Sequence record: PZ445428.1
Direction: 5' to 3' (one strand)
From: a phage
Length of the DNA stretch: 64,000 nt
Below are positions 9,184-31,517 of the stretch, piece after piece. Numbering within the stretch: the stretch's first letter is position 1; every line of letters begins with the position of its first letter. Both the position numbers and the translations under genes were made by a program. The notes under the pieces are model-generated. The model saw nothing but the letters and a program-made list of their open reading frames with translations, ran no database searches and was not told the origin of the DNA.

Positions 9184-10034
9184 AACAATATATTGAAACA
9201 GGAAAACGTATTCTCGAAGAAGGTCAGTGGGTAACTAATCCTAGAACAGGTGTACGTTGCCTCACTATTATTGATGCAGATTTCACTTTTAATGTGGGGG
9301 CTAATGAATTTCCTCTTATTACTACTCGTAAGGCATTTGCAAAACAAGCAATAATGGAAATGATTGGCTATCTACGTGGTTATGACTCCGCAGCACAATT
9401 CCGCGATATCGGGGTTAATACGTGGAACGCTAATGCAAATGAAAACCTTGCATGGTTGGATAATCCATATCGTAAAGGCGAGGATGATATGGGACGGGTC
9501 TATGGTGTTCAAGGACGTCATTGGACAAACTCTGATGGTCTTATGTTTGACCAATTATCCAAGATCTATCGTAACCTGAAAAGAGGGATTGATGATCGTG
9601 GGGAAATTCTAACTTTCTGGAATCCGGGGGAGTTCTCAAAGGGCTGCTTGCGTCCTTGTATGCACACCCATCAGTTCTCTATTCTAGGTGATACCTTATA
9701 TCTGAATTCATTTCAGAGGTCTAATGACTTCCTGCTAGGCCAGGTATTTAACATGGTTCAATGCTACGCTTTGCTTGCAATCATGGCTCAAATCACTGGA
9801 TATAAACCTGGGATCGCTCGCCAAAAGATCGTGAATCTTCACATCTATGAGAATCAGTATGAAGTTCTAATGGAACACAAACAGTTTGATCGTGAACCTT
9901 TTGAGCCGCCTCATCTGATTATTAATCCAGATATTCGAACTTTGGATGATGTATTAACTTGGGTAAGTAAGGATGATTTTACTGTTCGTGGCTATGAACA
10001 TCATCCTGCTATTGCATATCCATTTACGGTGTAA
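9180..10034 (+). CDS. thyA: thymidylate synthase
   Basis: 284-aa ORF; [10 protein letters not shown] catalytic-Cys region and QRSNDFLLG motif typical of ThyA. Confidence 0.85.
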
Positions 10035-10037
10035 CAT

Positions 10038-10391
10038 ATGTTAATTATACTATTATTTGTAATATTCTTTCTAAAACATTTTATGGCCGATTATCCTCTC
10101 CAAACACCATATATGCTAAGAAAGACTCATAAAATAGGGTGGAAACTTCCATTATTAACCCATTCTCTAGTACATGCTGTATTAACATTTGCAATTCTAA
10201 TTCTATTCACATCACTAGGGATGGCTATAGCTTTAGCTATTATGGAATTAATTTTACACTTTATTATAGATTATTGGAAAGCACAACGCTGTAAGTACGC
10301 TATAAGCGATGCTAAGTTTTGGATAGCTTTAGGATTTGATCAGTTACTGCACTATCTGACATACGCCTTAATAATCTTGATTATAATCTAA
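10038..10391 (+). CDS. small hydrophobic membrane protein
   Basis: ORF track; multiple predicted TM stretches. Confidence 0.5.
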   Translation: MLIILLFVIFFLKHFMADYPLQTPYMLRKTHKIGWKLPLLTHSLVHAVLTFAILILFTSLGMAIALAIMELILHFIIDYWKAQRCKYAISDAKFWIALGFDQLLHYLTYALIILIII

Positions 10392-10395
10392 CTCA

Positions 10396-10421
10396 AATAG
10401 CCCTTCGGGGCTATTATATTT
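10396..10421 (+). terminator. hairpin terminator
   Basis: AATAGCCC-ttcg-GGGCTATT hairpin then AT-rich run. Confidence 0.5.
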
Positions 10422-10430
10422 AAATTTCAT

Positions 10431-10459
10431 TTGCTTACTGAGTGAAATTCAAATATAAT
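10431..10459 (+). promoter_or_regulatory. early promoter cassette (-35 TTGCTT, -10 TATAAT)
   Basis: Hexamers with 17-bp spacer. Confidence 0.55.
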
Positions 10460-10483
10460 ATATTTTATAAATTGGAGACACCT

Positions 10484-10738
10484 ATGGGACTCTTTAAAAA
10501 GAAAGTTTATTTAACACAAAGTCAAGAACGCAGGTTCTTAACTCTGTCTCAGTATTATCACTTACCTTTCGATCATTTCGTAGAACGGGCGATAGAACAA
10601 TTCCTAGAAAAGGAACTAAGGGCAATAAGACCCGAACCGCCAAGAGTACCCAATGATGCACAGAGAGGCCACCCACGTATTCCTCCTATGCCGCCAATTC
10701 CTCAGGCGACTAGGGTCATTGTAGAGGGCGAAAAATAA
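10484..10738 (+). CDS. hypothetical protein (Pro-rich C-terminus)
   Basis: ORF track 10442..10738; start moved to ATG after GGAGACACC. Confidence 0.5.
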   Translation: MGLFKKKVYLTQSQERRFLTLSQYYHLPFDHFVERAIEQFLEKELRAIRPEPPRVPNDAQRGHPRIPPMPPIPQATRVIVEGEK

Positions 10739-16184: not shown

Positions 16185-16355
16185 ATGAAATCAGTTGTAA
16201 TTATTGGTGTTAATACTCGTGGTATTCGTACTACTAAAACTGTTAAAACTGCTAAGATTTCTGATGTTACATCAAACCCTAGCAAGTTTGATTTCGCTAA
16301 AGTCTCGGCAGTTATGACTGAAAAATCTTTTAATCAAACACTGGAAGCAAAATAA
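16185..16355 (+). CDS. hypothetical protein (56 aa)
   Basis: Hand-translated ORF below track cutoff (MKSVVIIGVNTRGIR...); GAGAGGAAG RBS; stop overlaps next ATG. Confidence 0.4.
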   Translation: MKSVVIIGVNTRGIRTTKTVKTAKISDVTSNPSKFDFAKVSAVMTEKSFNQTLEAK

Positions 16356-16798
16356 TGGAAGAGAATATCCTAGACGTTCTGCGTAGAGCTTTACAAGCAT
16401 CTAAAGTAAATGGTTCTGATAAAGAAGTAGTGAAGAGCTACCAGACTATAATTGGCGATCTTCAGCGGGTAGATAAAGACTTTATCACTTCTGAACAATT
16501 TGTAAATTATCTGAAAGCTCAGTTAAAGAGCATTGAAGCAACTAAAGCAAAACTGCAGGGTGCTGATCTGCAAAACTATAGTCTGCAATCTGCTCAGTAT
16601 GAATATGTACTTAACAGTTATTTAGAGAAGTATCTGCCTCCGCAGATGTCCTCTACTGAAATACGCAATTACTTTGCAGAATTAGTTAAACTGAATCCAG
16701 GTATTACCAAAGGTACCCTGATGAAAGCGATTAAGGAAGAATTTTCTGGTCGTTATGATGGTAAACTTGCAGCTCAAGTTGCTGGCGAATTTAATTAA
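16355..16798 (+). CDS. hypothetical protein (147 aa)
   Basis: ORF track. Confidence 0.55.
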   Translation: MEENILDVLRRALQASKVNGSDKEVVKSYQTIIGDLQRVDKDFITSEQFVNYLKAQLKSIEATKAKLQGADLQNYSLQSAQYEYVLNSYLEKYLPPQMSSTEIRNYFAELVKLNPGITKGTLMKAIKEEFSGRYDGKLAAQVAGEFN

Positions 16799-16835: not shown

Positions 16836-17963
16836 AGTTACATAAATTAGAGAGAACAGCGAGCCGATTACGCTGAGTGCAGAATCCCAACCGGAGCGCA
16901 TTGAATAGAGTCGGTGAGTTGTACTAGGATTCCTGATTAGAGAGGTTCCAGGCACCGCAGGGTTTACTCTGTACCGCTTCCAGCTATCGATATCAGGAAT
17001 GAATAGTGCGCAAAACTCGGGAGCTGTCCCGAAACCTCGTAAACTCTTCTCTCTAATTTAATTAAACGATGGATCTCAGCACGAGCCAGTCACAGTGTGA
17101 AACATGGTGCGTGACCCAGGGGTAGAAGACTAGGAGTTGGCTTGAGAAACCCATGTAACTCCTAACGCTGACCCGTCTAGGTTGCAAATCGAGACATGTG
17201 TATATCACAATGAGGTAAGTGACCATCAAATAGTGGGTAGCGTAATTTTTAGGTGAATGATGGAGGTCTAACGACTGAGGGCATCATCTCGGGATTACCA
17301 GCCACGAAATAGTGGGGTGTCGAACTGACTTATGTAATAACACTGCCGTCCTAGTATAAACGGTAATATCAAGCCGTAACTGGTGGAAGATGTAGGTTCG
17401 AATCCTACGGTCGGTAAGAATTAGATAACTCGGGCTTATACCGGATAAGCATTCGCTGCGGAAGTACATACTATGACGGTTCAGGAGGTACGCCGCCTGA
17501 TCAGTATGAGGTTAGAATCGAAACCGCTAAACCACGAGGAAACCTGACGGCCTCAGCCAAACTCGGAAACTCAGGATCGCTGCTTAGTGCGTGCCCTGTT
17601 TTAACCTAGAGACTAAGCACTCCAGCTTCGCATCGAAAATCGGAGGTGCGATTCTACTAGACCGCGTAACTATGAGAGGGGGAAATGCTCACATGAAACA
17701 TGTGACTAATGGTGCACAATAGAACAGGTAAACGCGATAAGTCCTGTTGAGTAGCAGCAGAAGGCTGGGAGTCATGACCTGAGCCTAACCGAGTTCTCCA
17801 CATAGGGAGGACATAACCACGAAGTCACCTTGACTTAAACTGGAAGATATTGTCTGACGGCAGGGCTGAAGAGCTTAATCTGAGGGGGCTGACCCTACCT
17901 ACCGCCGGGTATCTTTAAGAGCTTTTGAGAGAGTTCTTAAAAATACCTAACAAAATCTATTTT
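16836..17963 (+). ncRNA. candidate large structured non-coding RNA / tRNA-like precursor region
   Basis: 1.1 kb with stops in all plus frames, higher GC than surroundings, promoter upstream, tRNA-like T-arm (GTAGG-TTCGAAT-CCTAC near 17392-17408), canonical tRNA-Arg directly at 3' end. Confidence 0.3.
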
Positions 17964-24625: not shown

Positions 24626-24702
24626 GGGGGTGTAATCGAATTGGCATAGGTACTGGACTTAAAATTCAGGTTTTGTGGGTTCGAATCCCACCACCCCTAC
24701 CA
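24626..24702 (+). tRNA. tRNA with TAA anticodon (Leu-like D-loop, short variable loop)
   Basis: Acceptor GGGGGTG/CACCCCT, anticodon stem CTGGA/TTCAG loop CTTAAAA, T-arm GTGGG-TTCGAAT-CCCAC, CCA encoded; D-arm imperfect. Confidence 0.5.
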
Positions 24703-25990: not shown

Positions 25991-26065
25991 GCACCTTTAG
26001 CTGAGATGGATTAGCGCTTGCCTGAAGAGCTTGAGAGGTTGGATCGTTACCAACGGGGTGCACCA
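25991..26065 (+). tRNA. tRNA candidate (anticodon GAA, Phe?)
   Basis: Perfect acceptor GCACCTT/GGGGTGC and D-arm; anticodon stem imperfect, loop CTGAAGA; atypical T-loop ATCGTTA; CCA. Confidence 0.45.
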
Positions 26066-26678: not shown

Positions 26679-26761
26679 GGGTCGTTAGCCAAGCGGTTTG
26701 GCGGTGGACTGTTAATCCATGTCGAAAGACAACGTAGGTTCGAATCCTGCACGGCCCGCCA
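26679..26761 (+). tRNA. tRNA with GTT (Asn) anticodon and 13-nt variable arm
   Basis: Acceptor GGGTCGT/ACGGCCC, D-stem GCCA/TGGC, anticodon stem GTGGA/TCCAT loop CTGTTAA, variable hairpin GTC-GAAA-GAC, T-loop TTCGAAT, CCA. Confidence 0.55.
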
Positions 26762-29820: not shown

Positions 29821-29913
29821 GGAAGAGCAAATCGACTTGGTGACGAAAACCGCTTGGAAAGTGGCTGACTTGTGAAAGCAGGCTTGAGAGTTCGAATCTC
29901 TCTTCTTCCGCCA
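29821..29913 (+). tRNA. tRNA-Ser (anticodon GGA)
   Basis: Acceptor GGAAGAG/TTCTTCC, 3-bp D-stem, anticodon loop TTGGAAA, long variable arm, T-arm GAGAG-TTCGAAT-CTCTC, CCA. Confidence 0.65.
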
Positions 29914-29920
29914 AACAATT

Positions 29921-30010
29921 GGAAGTACGGGCGTAGTGGTATGCAACTAGTCTTGAAAACTAGCCCGCTGTAGCGATATGGTGATGGTTCGACTCCATGT
30001 GCTTCCGCCA
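29921..30010 (+). tRNA. tRNA-Ser (anticodon TGA)
   Basis: Acceptor GGAAGTA/TGCTTCC, anticodon stem CTAGT/ACTAG loop CTTGAAA, long variable arm, T-loop TTCGACT, CCA. Confidence 0.7.
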
Positions 30011-30016
30011 AATCTT

Positions 30017-30145
30017 GGAATATGCCGGAATTGGTAGACGGGACTGCCGAATAGGTTTACTAGGAACATCCACTCCTAGAAATATACCTTAAAAGCGGTT
30101 GAGTTAAATGGTCTAACTCGTGAAGGTTCAAGTCCTTCTATTCCT
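30017..30145 (+). tRNA. oversized tRNA-Leu(TAA)-like gene (~129 nt) with ~40-nt insertion in anticodon arm; possible intron-containing or disrupted tRNA
   Basis: Acceptor GGAATA/TATTCC, Leu-type D-arm CCG-GAATTGGTAGA-CGG, T-arm GAAGG-TTCAAGT-CCTTC, variable hairpin GAGTTA...TAACTC, anticodon stem ACTGC/GCGGT enclosing CTTAAAA loop plus inserted hairpin CTAGGA...TCCTAG; no CCA. Confidence 0.35.
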
Positions 30146-30395
30146 TGATACATCAATGGCTCAAAGAGTAACGGTGCACCTTTCTAGAGAATTTCCTGGG
30201 CGAGAATCCAGGTGTAATCAACTAGTCGTTAGTGTGATGAGTTTCGGAGAGCCGCCACAATTGAAGATCATTGTCTGTTTGAGTCTACCATTTAGGGTCG
30301 TTACTTGTAGCGCCTATCTGCTAGGTCTAATCACTAGGTAAAGGCATGCAAGCTTCTAGTGTAGAGAGTTCGCTACTCCTCGATGGTTTTCAATT

Positions 30396-31427: not shown

Positions 31428-31502
31428 TGCTCCTAAAGCATTGCTGGCGATGCAGTTGCCTTGTAAGCATCTGAACCGGGTTCGATTCCTGGTGGGAGCA
31501 CC
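31428..31502 (+). tRNA. tRNA-Thr (anticodon TGT)
   Basis: Acceptor GCTCCTA/TGGGAGC, D-stem GCAT/ATGC, anticodon loop CTTGTAA, T-arm CCGGG-TTCGATT-CCTGG, CCA. Confidence 0.65.
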
Positions 31503-31517
31503 AAATTTAAAAATTCA

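What the first reader, a model, noticed from the sequence alone, without database searches (positions are those of the whole stretch)
26679..26761. tRNA with Asn anticodon GTT but a type-II-like 13-nt variable arm
Clean acceptor, 4-bp D-stem, anticodon stem-loop GTGGA-CTGTTAA-TCCAT and T-arm, yet a 13-nt variable region forming a GTC-GAAA-GAC hairpin. Long variable arms are normally restricted to Ser/Leu/Tyr/Sec tRNAs, so identity and decoding are unclear.
Basis: seen in the sequence. Interest (0 to 1): 0.4.

Follow-up and report, generated by a model that had tools for sequence, protein, structure and literature searches.

The report
Phage asparagine tRNA with extra arm
This is a real asparagine tRNA gene of a T5-like E. 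coli phage that carries an extra hairpin arm normally seen only in serine, leucine and tyrosine tRNAs; the same design recurs in hundreds of unrelated phages but almost never in bacteria, so the arm is selected for a purpose that is still untested.

Summary
Window 26679-26761 (+) is an 83-nt tRNA with anticodon GTT, G73, an encoded CCA and a 13-nt variable region folding as GTC-GAAA-GAC plus AAC. ARAGORN, Rfam (56.3 bits) and the minimum-energy fold agree. The window is Escherichia phage TrudiGerster (Bas27, T5-like), and GenBank already annotates the gene as tRNA-Asn.

It is not a one-off or a sequencing error. Homologues of 83-88 nt occur in about 285 T5-like records and in T4-like, rV5/phAPEC8-like and phiKZ-like phages. 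I collected 98 distinct long-arm Asn tRNAs. The extra stem covaries as strongly as the T stem, G73 is kept in 96 of 98, and the arm geometry is tyrosine-like, not serine-like. About 8% of sampled viral Asn tRNAs have the arm. No close homologue was found in 5,426 complete E. coli genomes, and in 185,579 species genomes only about 22 cases appeared, mostly in tRNA arrays.

Most likely it is charged with asparagine by host AsnRS and reads AAC/AAU. The role of the arm is inferred only. My preferred guess is altered recognition by host tRNA-cutting defence nucleases; host tRNA-Asn is a known PARIS AriB target. I found no paper describing this class. It is a new variant of a known kind, of moderate interest.

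The parts
26679..26761 (+). tRNA-Asn(GUU) gene, 83 nt including encoded CCA
   Evidence: ARAGORN; Rfam tRNA 56.3 bits; GenBank bas27_0110 tRNA-Asn
26679..26685 (+). acceptor stem 5' strand GGGTCGT; pairs with 26751-26757 (ACGGCCC): G1-C72, G2-C71, G3-C70, T4-G69, C5-G68, G6-C67, T7-A66
   Evidence: sequence; fold
26688..26702 (+). D arm: stem GCCA/TGGC (4 bp here; 3 bp plus G13-A22 in most relatives), loop AGCGGTT with C16 G17
   Evidence: sequence; alignment A1
26704..26720 (+). anticodon arm GTGGA-CTGTTAA-TCCAT. Positions 29-41 (GGACTGTTAATCC) are identical to host E. coli tRNA-Asn, including the U36-A-A-U-C-C41 stretch where AriB cuts the host tRNA
   Evidence: PMC12409363
26711..26713 (+). 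anticodon GTT (Asn; reads AAC/AAU)
   Evidence: ARAGORN anticodon at position 33
26721..26733 (+). variable arm, 13 nt: stem 26721-26723 (GTC) with 26728-26730 (GAC), GNRA loop GAAA at 26724-26727, three unpaired 3' bases AAC at 26731-26733
   Evidence: fold; Rfam insertion; covariation in homologues; family statistics
26734..26750 (+). T arm GTAGG-TTCGAAT-CCTGC
26758..26758 (+). discriminator G73 (AsnRS determinant; antideterminant for LeuRS and TyrRS)
   Evidence: sequence; G in 96/98 family members; PMC9976931
26759..26761 (+). genomically encoded 3' CCA
   Evidence: sequence; CCA encoded in 57/98 family members

Best explanation
This is a functional phage-encoded asparagine tRNA. It belongs to a widespread viral class of tRNA-Asn(GUU) that carries a short, tyrosine-type variable-arm hairpin: 3-4 bp, usually a GNRA loop, and 3-4 unpaired bases on its 3' side.

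Step 1 (shown): it is a genuine cloverleaf tRNA gene. The extra hairpin is maintained by selection, with compensatory changes across very different phages.

Step 2 (inferred, probability about 0.8): it is transcribed with the neighbouring T5-type tRNA cluster. Host AsnRS charges it with asparagine through G34-U35-U36 and G73. It decodes AAC/AAU, adding Asn-tRNA supply during infection. In hosts without AsnRS, the relatives with U1-A72 would go through non-discriminating AspRS and GatCAB.

Step 3 (inferred, probability about 0.3-0.35, but still my preferred reading of what the arm is for): the extra arm changes the shape of the tRNA next to the 3' strand of the anticodon stem. Host tRNA-targeting defence nucleases would then bind or cut it less well, or unproductively, while synthetase identity is kept. 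PARIS AriB is the known example; it cuts host tRNA-Asn between positions 40 and 41. This would be an alternative to the route taken by the phage T5 Asn allele, which keeps a normal 5-nt variable loop but has substitutions at the cut site.
For: Step 1. ARAGORN, Rfam and the MFE fold agree. Long-arm Asn tRNAs of 83-88 nt occur in Demerecviridae, Straboviridae (Winklervirus, Karamvirus, Moonvirus), Marfavirus, Stephanstirmvirinae and Phikzvirus. An IMG/VR scan gave at least 120 loci, and 98 unique parsed sequences resulted. At least 3 bp of hairpin form in 83/98, against 27% of shuffles, and 60 of those 83 loops are GNRA. In 32 sequences with a 15-nt arm, all 4 arm pairs show changes on both sides and the three inner pairs are 97-100% paired. 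Over the whole structure tested, the covariation score is 0.61 against 0.15 shuffled (0/500 shuffles reach it), and slid controls give at most 0.12.

Step 2. Anticodon GUU and G73 are the AsnRS identity set, transplantable into tRNA-Lys (PMC9976931). G73 is kept in 96/98. G73 is an antideterminant for LeuRS and TyrRS. The arm has 3-4 unpaired 3' bases and 3-4 bp, like phage tRNA-Tyr; tRNA-Ser has 1 unpaired base and 5-6 bp. U1-A72, the GatCAB determinant and not a Ser feature, is present in 62/98, including the Pseudomonas phage. Long-arm Cys, Trp, Thr, Lys and Ile tRNAs in the same loci keep their own typical discriminators, so the arm behaves as an add-on to cognate tRNAs. This is the only Asn tRNA of the phage. 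About 5.4% of codons in crudely called ORFs of the window are Asn.

Step 3. E. coli tRNA-Asn(GUU) is cut by AriB at 40|41, and the T5 Asn variant contributes to rescue (PMC12409363). This tRNA keeps the host cut-site sequence but has C16 instead of U16 and the arm starting at position 44. T5-like phages carry either the T5-type allele (152 records) or the long-arm allele (about 285 records) at the same Cys-Asn-T5.068 position. There is precedent that the variable arm decides nuclease sensitivity: retron-Eco7/Septu PtuAB cut the tRNA-Tyr variable arm, and T5 tRNA-Tyr resists through its distinctive variable loop (PMC13096335). The class is strongly virus-biased: about 8% of sampled viral Asn tRNAs, no close homologue in 5,426 E. 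coli genomes, and about 22 true cases in 185,579 species genomes, mostly inside arrays of 10-36 tRNAs.
Against: There are no expression, charging or cleavage data for this tRNA. From my own knowledge (Ruff et al. 1991), class IIb synthetases approach tRNA from the variable-loop side, so an extra arm could hinder AsnRS. This particular tRNA also has G1-C72, G2-C71 and G73, which are the acceptor features of E. coli tRNA-Ser, so weak serylation cannot be excluded. For step 3, keeping the UAAUC site is not more frequent in long-arm than in short-arm phage Asn, Thr or Lys tRNAs (small numbers, inconclusive). The AriB model places its second contact on the D loop, not on the variable region. The arm occurs in phages of many hosts and on isotypes with no known nuclease. 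A phage T5-like tRNA-Asn did not rescue from PrrC170, but that nuclease targets tRNA-Lys, so this is not informative.
Confidence: 0.7

Rival explanations
1. It is a functional Asn tRNA, and the extra arm has no role in conflict with the host. It would be a structural stabiliser of the tRNA core, for example compensating for missing host modifications such as m7G46 or helping fast folding and processing of cluster transcripts. Or it is an inherited architecture that is simply tolerated.
For: Phage tRNAs cross the class boundary in both directions: 17/505 other type-I isotypes have long arms and 24/59 Leu tRNAs have short ones. This suggests relaxed architectural constraints. GNRA loops are also the commonest loops of the phage Ser and Leu arms, so the loop is not special. 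No association with retention of the nuclease site was found.
Against: Strong compensatory covariation and persistence across phage families and hosts show the hairpin is selected, not merely tolerated. The near absence from bacterial chromosomes is not explained by a purely structural benefit, which cells could also use.
Confidence: 0.22
2. The tRNA has dual or altered identity. SerRS, which ignores the anticodon and reads the long arm, G73 and G1-C72/G2-C71, also charges it, so some Asn codons are read as Ser.
For: This tRNA has G73, G1-C72 and G2-C71. [quoted passage not shown] From my own knowledge (Himeno et al. 1990), lengthening the tRNA-Tyr arm by two bases creates serine acceptance, and many relatives have 15-nt, 4-bp arms.
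Against: The arm geometry differs from phage and host tRNA-Ser: 3-4 unpaired 3' bases against 1, and 3-4 bp against 5-6. U1-A72 occurs in 62/98 and non-G-C 2:71 pairs in about half the family, whereas G1-C72/G2-C71 occur in about 90% of the Ser tRNAs in the same loci. Proteome-wide Asn-to-Ser substitution would be costly, and this is the phage's only Asn tRNA.
Confidence: 0.05
3. It is not mainly a translation substrate. It would act as a decoy or sponge for tRNA-binding defence proteins, for example PtuAB-type enzymes that read a tyrosine-like variable arm, or as another kind of regulatory RNA.
For: The arm geometry and the CUGUNAA anticodon loop resemble tRNA-Tyr. The authors of the PARIS and Septu studies raise the possibility that viral tRNAs act as competitive inhibitors or decoys.
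Against: Full conservation of the Asn anticodon loop, G73, the encoded CCA and a normal 7/5 acceptor/T helix points to use by the translation apparatus.
Confidence: 0.03

Closest known systems
Host E. coli tRNA-Asn(GUU) (asnT/U/V/W), class I
   Same: Anticodon loop CUGUUAA, anticodon-arm positions 29-41 identical, G73, 7/5 acceptor/T helices.
   Different: The host tRNA is 76 nt with a 5-nt variable loop (AUGUC), U1-A72 and a D loop with U16. The phage tRNA has a 13-nt hairpin arm, G1-C72 and C16. There is no overall sequence similarity beyond the anticodon and T arms.
Bacterial class II tRNA-Tyr(GUA)
   Same: Variable arm of 12-15 nt, 3-bp stem, 0-1 unpaired base 5' and 3 unpaired bases 3'. 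The anticodon differs at one position. It is often the adjacent gene in phages.
   Different: tRNA-Tyr has A73 and A36, and its loops are mostly not GNRA. There is no consistent paralogy: the nearest tRNA within the same phage is Tyr in only 15 of 72 cases, and Lys/Asp in this window.
tRNA-Ser (class II, SerRS reads the arm)
   Same: G73, G1-C72 and G2-C71 in this phage; GAAA-capped arm.
   Different: Ser arms are 15-20 nt with 5-6 bp and one unpaired 3' base. The anticodon here is an AsnRS determinant.
Phage T5 tRNA-Asn (T5t17), the PARIS-neutralising variant
   Same: Same genomic slot between tRNA-Cys and the T5.068 homologue in T5-like phages; GUU, G73, encoded CCA.
   Different: The T5 allele is 78 nt and class I, with substitutions in the anticodon stem (UAAGUU). 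It lies next to a T5orf172-type nuclease ORF. The allele here keeps the host-like stem and adds the arm.
allo-tRNAs and other non-canonical long-arm tRNAs (Mukai et al. 2017, PMC5389517)
   Same: Long variable arms combined with anticodons other than Ser/Leu/Tyr, found in metagenomes and phages.
   Different: allo-tRNAs are defined by 8/4 or 9/3 acceptor/T helices and serine-type identity. This tRNA has the canonical 7/5 arrangement and Asn identity elements.
T5 tRNA-Tyr with a distinctive variable loop that resists retron-Eco7/Septu PtuAB (PMC11555353, PMC13096335)
   Same: A phage tRNA of the same cluster in which the variable arm determines sensitivity to a defence nuclease.
   Different: That case is a change within an arm that tRNA-Tyr always has. 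Here an arm is present on an isotype that normally lacks one, and no nuclease effect has been shown.

Membership tests
tRNA (Rfam RF00005) | Cloverleaf matching the covariance model above the gathering score | tested here: met
   56.3 bits against 29, full-length model match; ARAGORN call
tRNA-Asn (E. coli AsnRS substrate) | Anticodon G34 U35 U36 | tested here: met
   GTT at 26711-26713 in a 7-nt loop CTGTTAA; identity rule from PMC9976931
tRNA-Asn (E. coli AsnRS substrate) | Discriminator G73 | tested here: met
   G at 26758; G in 96/98 relatives
tRNA-Asn (E. coli AsnRS substrate) | Actual aminoacylation with asparagine | not testable with these tools
   Needs an in vitro or in vivo charging assay
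Class II (long-arm) tRNA architecture | Variable region of at least 10 nt forming a stem-loop | tested here: met
   13 nt, 3 bp plus GAAA; covariation in relatives
Class II (long-arm) tRNA architecture | 3-bp D stem with unpaired 13:22 (bacterial class II habit) | tested here: inconclusive
   This tRNA has a 4-bp D stem (A13-T22); most relatives have 3 bp plus G13-A22
tRNA-Ser (SerRS substrate) | Long arm of serine type: about 5-6 bp and one unpaired 3' base | tested here: not met
   3 bp and 3 unpaired 3' bases here; Ser tRNAs of the same loci have mode 5-6 bp and 1 unpaired base
tRNA-Ser (SerRS substrate) | G1-C72, G2-C71, G73 | tested here: met
   Present in this tRNA, but U1-A72 in 62/98 relatives
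tRNA-Tyr (TyrRS substrate) | A73 and anticodon GUA | tested here: not met
   G73 and U36; G73 listed as a TyrRS antideterminant
tRNA-Leu (LeuRS substrate) | A73 | tested here: not met
   G73; A73 in 103/104 long-arm phage Leu tRNAs
tRNA-Sec / allo-tRNA | 8/4, 9/4 or 9/3 acceptor/T helices | tested here: not met
   Canonical 7-bp acceptor and 5-bp T stem
Nuclease-resistant phage tRNA variants (counter-defence tRNAs) | Resists a host tRNA nuclease that cuts the host isoacceptor, and rescues infection | not testable with these tools
   Only circumstantial: host tRNA-Asn is an AriB target; the association test was inconclusive

The most novel reading that the evidence does not exclude
The hairpin is a portable add-on that phages place on tRNAs of many isotypes (Asn above all, also Thr, Lys, Cys, Ile and Met). 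It would make them unrecognisable to, or decoys for, host tRNA-cutting immune nucleases while leaving synthetase identity intact. This would be a second general route of tRNA-based counter-defence, besides the known anticodon-loop substitutions.
Probability: 0.25. Interest if true: 0.8.

Novelty: new variant of a known kind. Interest (0 to 1): 0.5.

Why it matters
Textbook tRNA biology restricts long variable arms to Ser, Leu, bacterial Tyr and Sec, where synthetases read them. Here a conserved, covarying arm sits on an isotype whose synthetase reads the anticodon. It occurs in hundreds of well-studied phages, yet is essentially absent from their hosts.

If the arm protects against tRNA-targeting immunity such as PARIS, it would reveal a new structural principle in the phage-host arms race. 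It would also help explain why large virulent phages carry their own copies of tRNAs the host already has.

If it does not, it still bears on other questions: how class IIb synthetases, EF-Tu and the ribosome accommodate an extra arm, isotype prediction in phage annotation, and the design of orthogonal tRNAs.

Tried and rejected
1. Sequence error or one-off. Rejected: the arm is identical in more than 260 genomes.

2. A better alternative fold or anticodon. None was found.

3. Origin by a one-base anticodon shift from tRNA-Tyr (GTA) or tRNA-Ser (GCT). Not supported. In this window the nearest paralogues are Lys(TTT) and Asp. Across 72 long-arm Asn tRNAs (one to two per locus) the nearest tRNA within the same locus is Tyr 15, Lys 12, Leu 7 and others, with low scores. 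Only local cases show close long-arm paralogues (Lys in L146, Cys in L081/L082).

4. Host origin. No match at E <= 1e-6 to the phage tRNA in 5,426 complete E. coli genomes. A permissive search hit only T-arm fragments of Lys and Arg tRNAs.

5. Bacterial occurrence. Of 75 pattern hits in 185,579 species genomes, only about 22 are real long-arm Asn tRNAs, mostly in dense tRNA arrays. One (Azoarcus, L215) is a 9-nt tandem duplication in a normal tRNA-Asn.

6. Using the published remark that the Bas34 tRNA-Asn does not protect against PARIS as evidence against the shield idea. Rejected: the Bas34 copy is a long-arm homologue with a broken acceptor stem and T32, probably a pseudogene.

7. Association between a long arm and retention of the AriB site UAAUC. 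Asn 4/9 against 42/104, Thr 5/9 against 28/80, Lys 2/2 against 34/80. Too few cases; inconclusive.

8. Literature. Eight full-text searches and targeted reads of the PARIS, retron/Septu, tRNA-identity, tRNA-array and anticodon-loop-mutation papers found no description of long-arm phage tRNA-Asn. Subscription-only and older T5/BF23 literature could not be searched.

Full report
**What is there.** The window is part of Escherichia phage TrudiGerster (Bas27, MZ501108; Demerecviridae, Epseptimavirus; 100% identity). It contains the T5-type tRNA cluster: 29 tRNAs by ARAGORN and a few more by Rfam and GenBank. At 26679-26761 (+) ARAGORN calls an 83-nt tRNA-Asn with anticodon GTT. Rfam's tRNA model matches end to end at 56.3 bits with a 10-nt insertion in the variable region. 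The minimum-energy fold is the cloverleaf plus a GUC-GAAA-GAC hairpin.

Read directly from the sequence, the parts are:
- a 7-bp acceptor stem and a 4-bp D stem;
- anticodon arm GTGGA-CTGTTAA-TCCAT;
- a 13-nt variable region at 26721-26733;
- T arm GTAGG-TTCGAAT-CCTGC;
- discriminator G73 and an encoded CCA.

GenBank already annotates the gene as tRNA-Asn.

**Is it more than chance?** A single 3-bp hairpin is weak evidence, because 27% of shuffled variable regions form one. The comparative evidence is decisive.
- blastn finds the gene in 647 phage records. About 285 are at least 90% identical (T5-like phages of Salmonella, Escherichia, Proteus and others).
- Full-length matches of 84-88 nt also occur in T4-like phages of Klebsiella, Enterobacter, Serratia, Citrobacter and Salmonella, in rV5/phAPEC8-like phages and in a Pseudomonas phiKZ-like phage.
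- Their variable arms differ in sequence but keep the hairpin: TC/GA, TTC/GAA, TCC/GGA, TCA/TGA, TCG/CGA, GGC/GCC, AAC/GTT.
- An IMG/VR scan anchored on the anticodon arm hit its 120-locus limit.
- In all I parsed 98 distinct long-arm Asn tRNAs. Variable regions are 9-19 nt (mode 15). At least 3 bp form in 83/98, and 60 of those 83 loops are GNRA.
- On 32 sequences with a 15-nt arm, aligned without gaps, all four arm pairs show changes on both sides and the inner three are 97-100% paired. Over the whole structure tested, the covariation score is 0.61 against 0.15 for shuffles (0 of 500 reach it) and at most 0.12 for slid controls. The arm covaries as well as the T stem.

**Identity.** According to the tRNA-identity review (PMC9976931), E. 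coli asparagine identity rests on the three anticodon bases and G73, and can be transplanted into tRNA-Lys. G73 is an antideterminant for LeuRS and TyrRS. This tRNA has GUU and G73, and the family keeps G73 in 96/98.

I compared arm geometry with the Ser, Leu and Tyr tRNAs of the same viral loci:

| tRNA | stem | unpaired 3' bases | N73 | 1:72 and 2:71 |
|---|---|---|---|---|
| long-arm Asn | 3-4 bp | 3-4 | G | U1-A72 in 62/98 |
| Tyr | 3 bp | 3 | A | mostly G-C |
| Leu | 3-4 bp | 2 | A | mixed |
| Ser | 5-6 bp | 1 | G or U | G-C/G-C in about 90% |

So the arm is tyrosine-like in shape, while the discriminator excludes TyrRS and LeuRS. U1-A72 is the determinant of the GatCAB amidotransferase route and is not a serine feature. 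It is present in 62/98, including the Pseudomonas phage. Pseudomonas makes Asn-tRNA indirectly (my own knowledge).

Long-arm Cys, Trp, Thr, Lys and Ile tRNAs found in the same loci also keep their own typical discriminators. The hairpin therefore behaves as an add-on to otherwise cognate tRNAs.

This specific tRNA does have G1-C72 and G2-C71, so low-level serylation cannot be formally excluded. From my own knowledge, the 13-nt, 3-bp arm equals that of E. coli tRNA-Tyr, which SerRS rejects (Himeno et al. 1990). It is the only Asn tRNA of the phage. Asn codons make up about 5.4% of crudely called ORF codons in the window.

**Relation to the host and to other tRNAs.** The host tRNA-Asn is 76 nt with a 5-nt variable loop. 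I verified it at 100% identity in 5,425 of 5,426 genomes. The phage tRNA shares with it only the anticodon arm (positions 29-41 identical) and the T loop. No close homologue of the phage tRNA (no match at E <= 1e-6) was found in 5,426 complete E. coli genomes, including prophages and plasmids.

My idea that the tRNA arose from tRNA-Tyr or tRNA-Ser by a one-base anticodon shift was not borne out. The nearest paralogues in this window are Lys(UUU) and Asp, and across phages there is no consistent nearest isotype.

**Distribution.**
- A scan that does not depend on arm length (CTGTTAA ... GGTTCGAATCC) gave 112 ARAGORN-confirmed Asn tRNAs in the newly fetched loci, 8 with long arms, all in loci with several tRNAs.
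- Counted another way, Asn is 9/114 long. All other class-I isotypes together are 17/505; Cys, Ile and Met are the next highest. Conversely, 24/59 Leu tRNAs lack the long arm. Phage tRNAs thus cross the class boundary in both directions, with Asn among the most frequent cases.
- In one genome for each of 185,579 bacterial and archaeal species, the anchored pattern gave 75 hits. Only about 22 are true long-arm Asn tRNAs, mostly inside arrays of 10-36 tRNA genes.

**What the arm might do.** This part is inference. Three published findings set the context.
[quoted passage not shown] The T5 Lys, Thr and Asn variants together neutralise PARIS. Those variants carry substitutions at or near the cut site, and U16 in the D loop also matters (PMC12409363).
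- Retron-Eco7 and Septu PtuAB cut the variable arm of tRNA-Tyr. T5 tRNA-Tyr is reported to resist retron-Eco7 cleavage because of its distinctive variable loop (PMC13096335).
- Phage tRNA clusters are now viewed as counter-defence (PMC11555353).

T5 itself has a different, class-I Asn allele (78 nt, UAAGUU in the anticodon stem) at the same position, next to a T5orf172-type nuclease ORF. That allele is in 152 records. The long-arm allele keeps the host cut-site sequence UAAUCC but has C16 and an arm starting three bases after the cut site.

The two alleles may be alternative solutions to the same pressure. I rate this at about 0.3. My one computational test, association of the arm with retention of UAAUC, was inconclusive. 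The Bas34 remark in the PARIS paper does not bear on it, because the Bas34 copy is a degenerate long-arm homologue. A purely structural role is the main rival.

**Novelty and verdict.** The gene is known and annotated. The class-II-like architecture, its conservation, covariation, breadth and virus bias are not described in any paper I could search. Older subscription literature on T5/BF23 tRNAs was out of reach.

I classify it as a new variant of a known kind: a phage tRNA-Asn with a tyrosine-type extra arm. Probabilities:
- about 0.8 that it is a working Asn tRNA;
- about 0.3 that the arm is a counter-defence feature;
- about 0.05 for dual Ser/Asn identity.

Interest is 0.5.

Noticed in passing
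window 24626-24702 (+): tRNA-Leu(TAA) of 77 nt with only a 5-nt variable loop, A73 and an encoded CCA. This is the reverse oddity, a Leu tRNA without the long arm. In an unbiased viral sample 24 of 59 Leu tRNAs are short.
   Followed up: partly
window 17344-17417 (+): A 74-nt tRNA called Ser with anticodon ACT and no long arm; Rfam 36 bits. The same element lies inside the 'RNAX' stable-RNA feature of phage T5.
   Followed up: no
window 29821-29913 and 29921-30010 (+); also 30078-30146: Two GenBank-annotated tRNA-Ser genes (GGA, UGA) are missed by ARAGORN and fall below the Rfam tRNA gathering score. Their best match is the tRNA-Sec model, at 25 and 38 bits. There is a further weak tRNA-like hit of 24 bits at 30078-30146.
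   Followed up: partly
window 25991-26062 (+): tRNA-Phe (GenBank) found by Rfam at 33 bits but not by ARAGORN.
   Followed up: no
window 16355-16798 (+): A 147-aa ORF, apparently the counterpart by position and size (not aligned) of T5.081, which T5 annotates as 'tRNA amidotransferase'. It matches Pfam YqeY (PF09424), the GatB-tail-like tRNA-binding fold, at E = 8.8e-6 and 26.3 bits, just under the cutoff of 27. A possible tRNA-binding accessory protein near the tRNA cluster.
   Followed up: partly
L031 (phage T5, NC_005859) 9878-10525, minus strand: T5 carries a different, 78-nt class-I tRNA-Asn with a poorly paired anticodon stem. The T5.069 ORF (T5orf172/MUG113 nuclease-like domain) overlaps it, and the tRNA-like 'rna3' follows it, all in the slot where TrudiGerster has the long-arm Asn. 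This suggests allele replacement linked to a homing-type nuclease.
   Followed up: partly
L335 (phage SelmaRatti, Bas34, MZ501103) about 10598-10682: A long-arm tRNA-Asn homologue whose 3' acceptor strand no longer pairs (ACCCGCT against GGGTCGT), with T32; annotated as a 77-nt tRNA-Asn. It is probably a pseudogene, which may explain why the Bas34 Asn tRNA did not protect against PARIS in PMC12409363.
   Followed up: partly
L002 4406-4492 (Salmonella phage SP01-like contig), L009 8998-9084: T5-like phages with an 87-nt tRNA-Thr(TGT) carrying a similar GNRA-capped variable arm and keeping the host-like UAAUCA AriB site. TrudiGerster's own Thr(TGT) at window 31429-31503 is a 75-nt class-I form with UAAGCA.
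   Followed up: partly
L148, L150, L159, L208 (Micromonospora/Verrucosispora), L212 (Methyloprofundus), L166, L146, L206: Bacterial genomes and MAGs with dense arrays of 10-36 tRNA genes within 8 kb that include a long-arm tRNA-Asn. Some also hold long-arm Lys(TTT) of 88-90 nt and Ile(TAT) of 93 nt.
   Followed up: partly
L215 114-200 (Azoarcus sp. L1K30): A chromosomal tRNA-Asn of 87 nt whose 'long arm' is a 9-nt tandem duplication (CCGTAGGTC twice) of the normal variable-loop region. It is not a member of the phage class.
   Followed up: no
Viral loci L015, L048, L051, L053, L055, L085, L107: tRNA-Ile(TAT) genes of 91-96 nt with 20-26-nt variable regions sharing an AGAT(A/T)A-like motif (for example CAGATAATCGG). 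They look like another recurrent non-canonical phage tRNA class.
   Followed up: no
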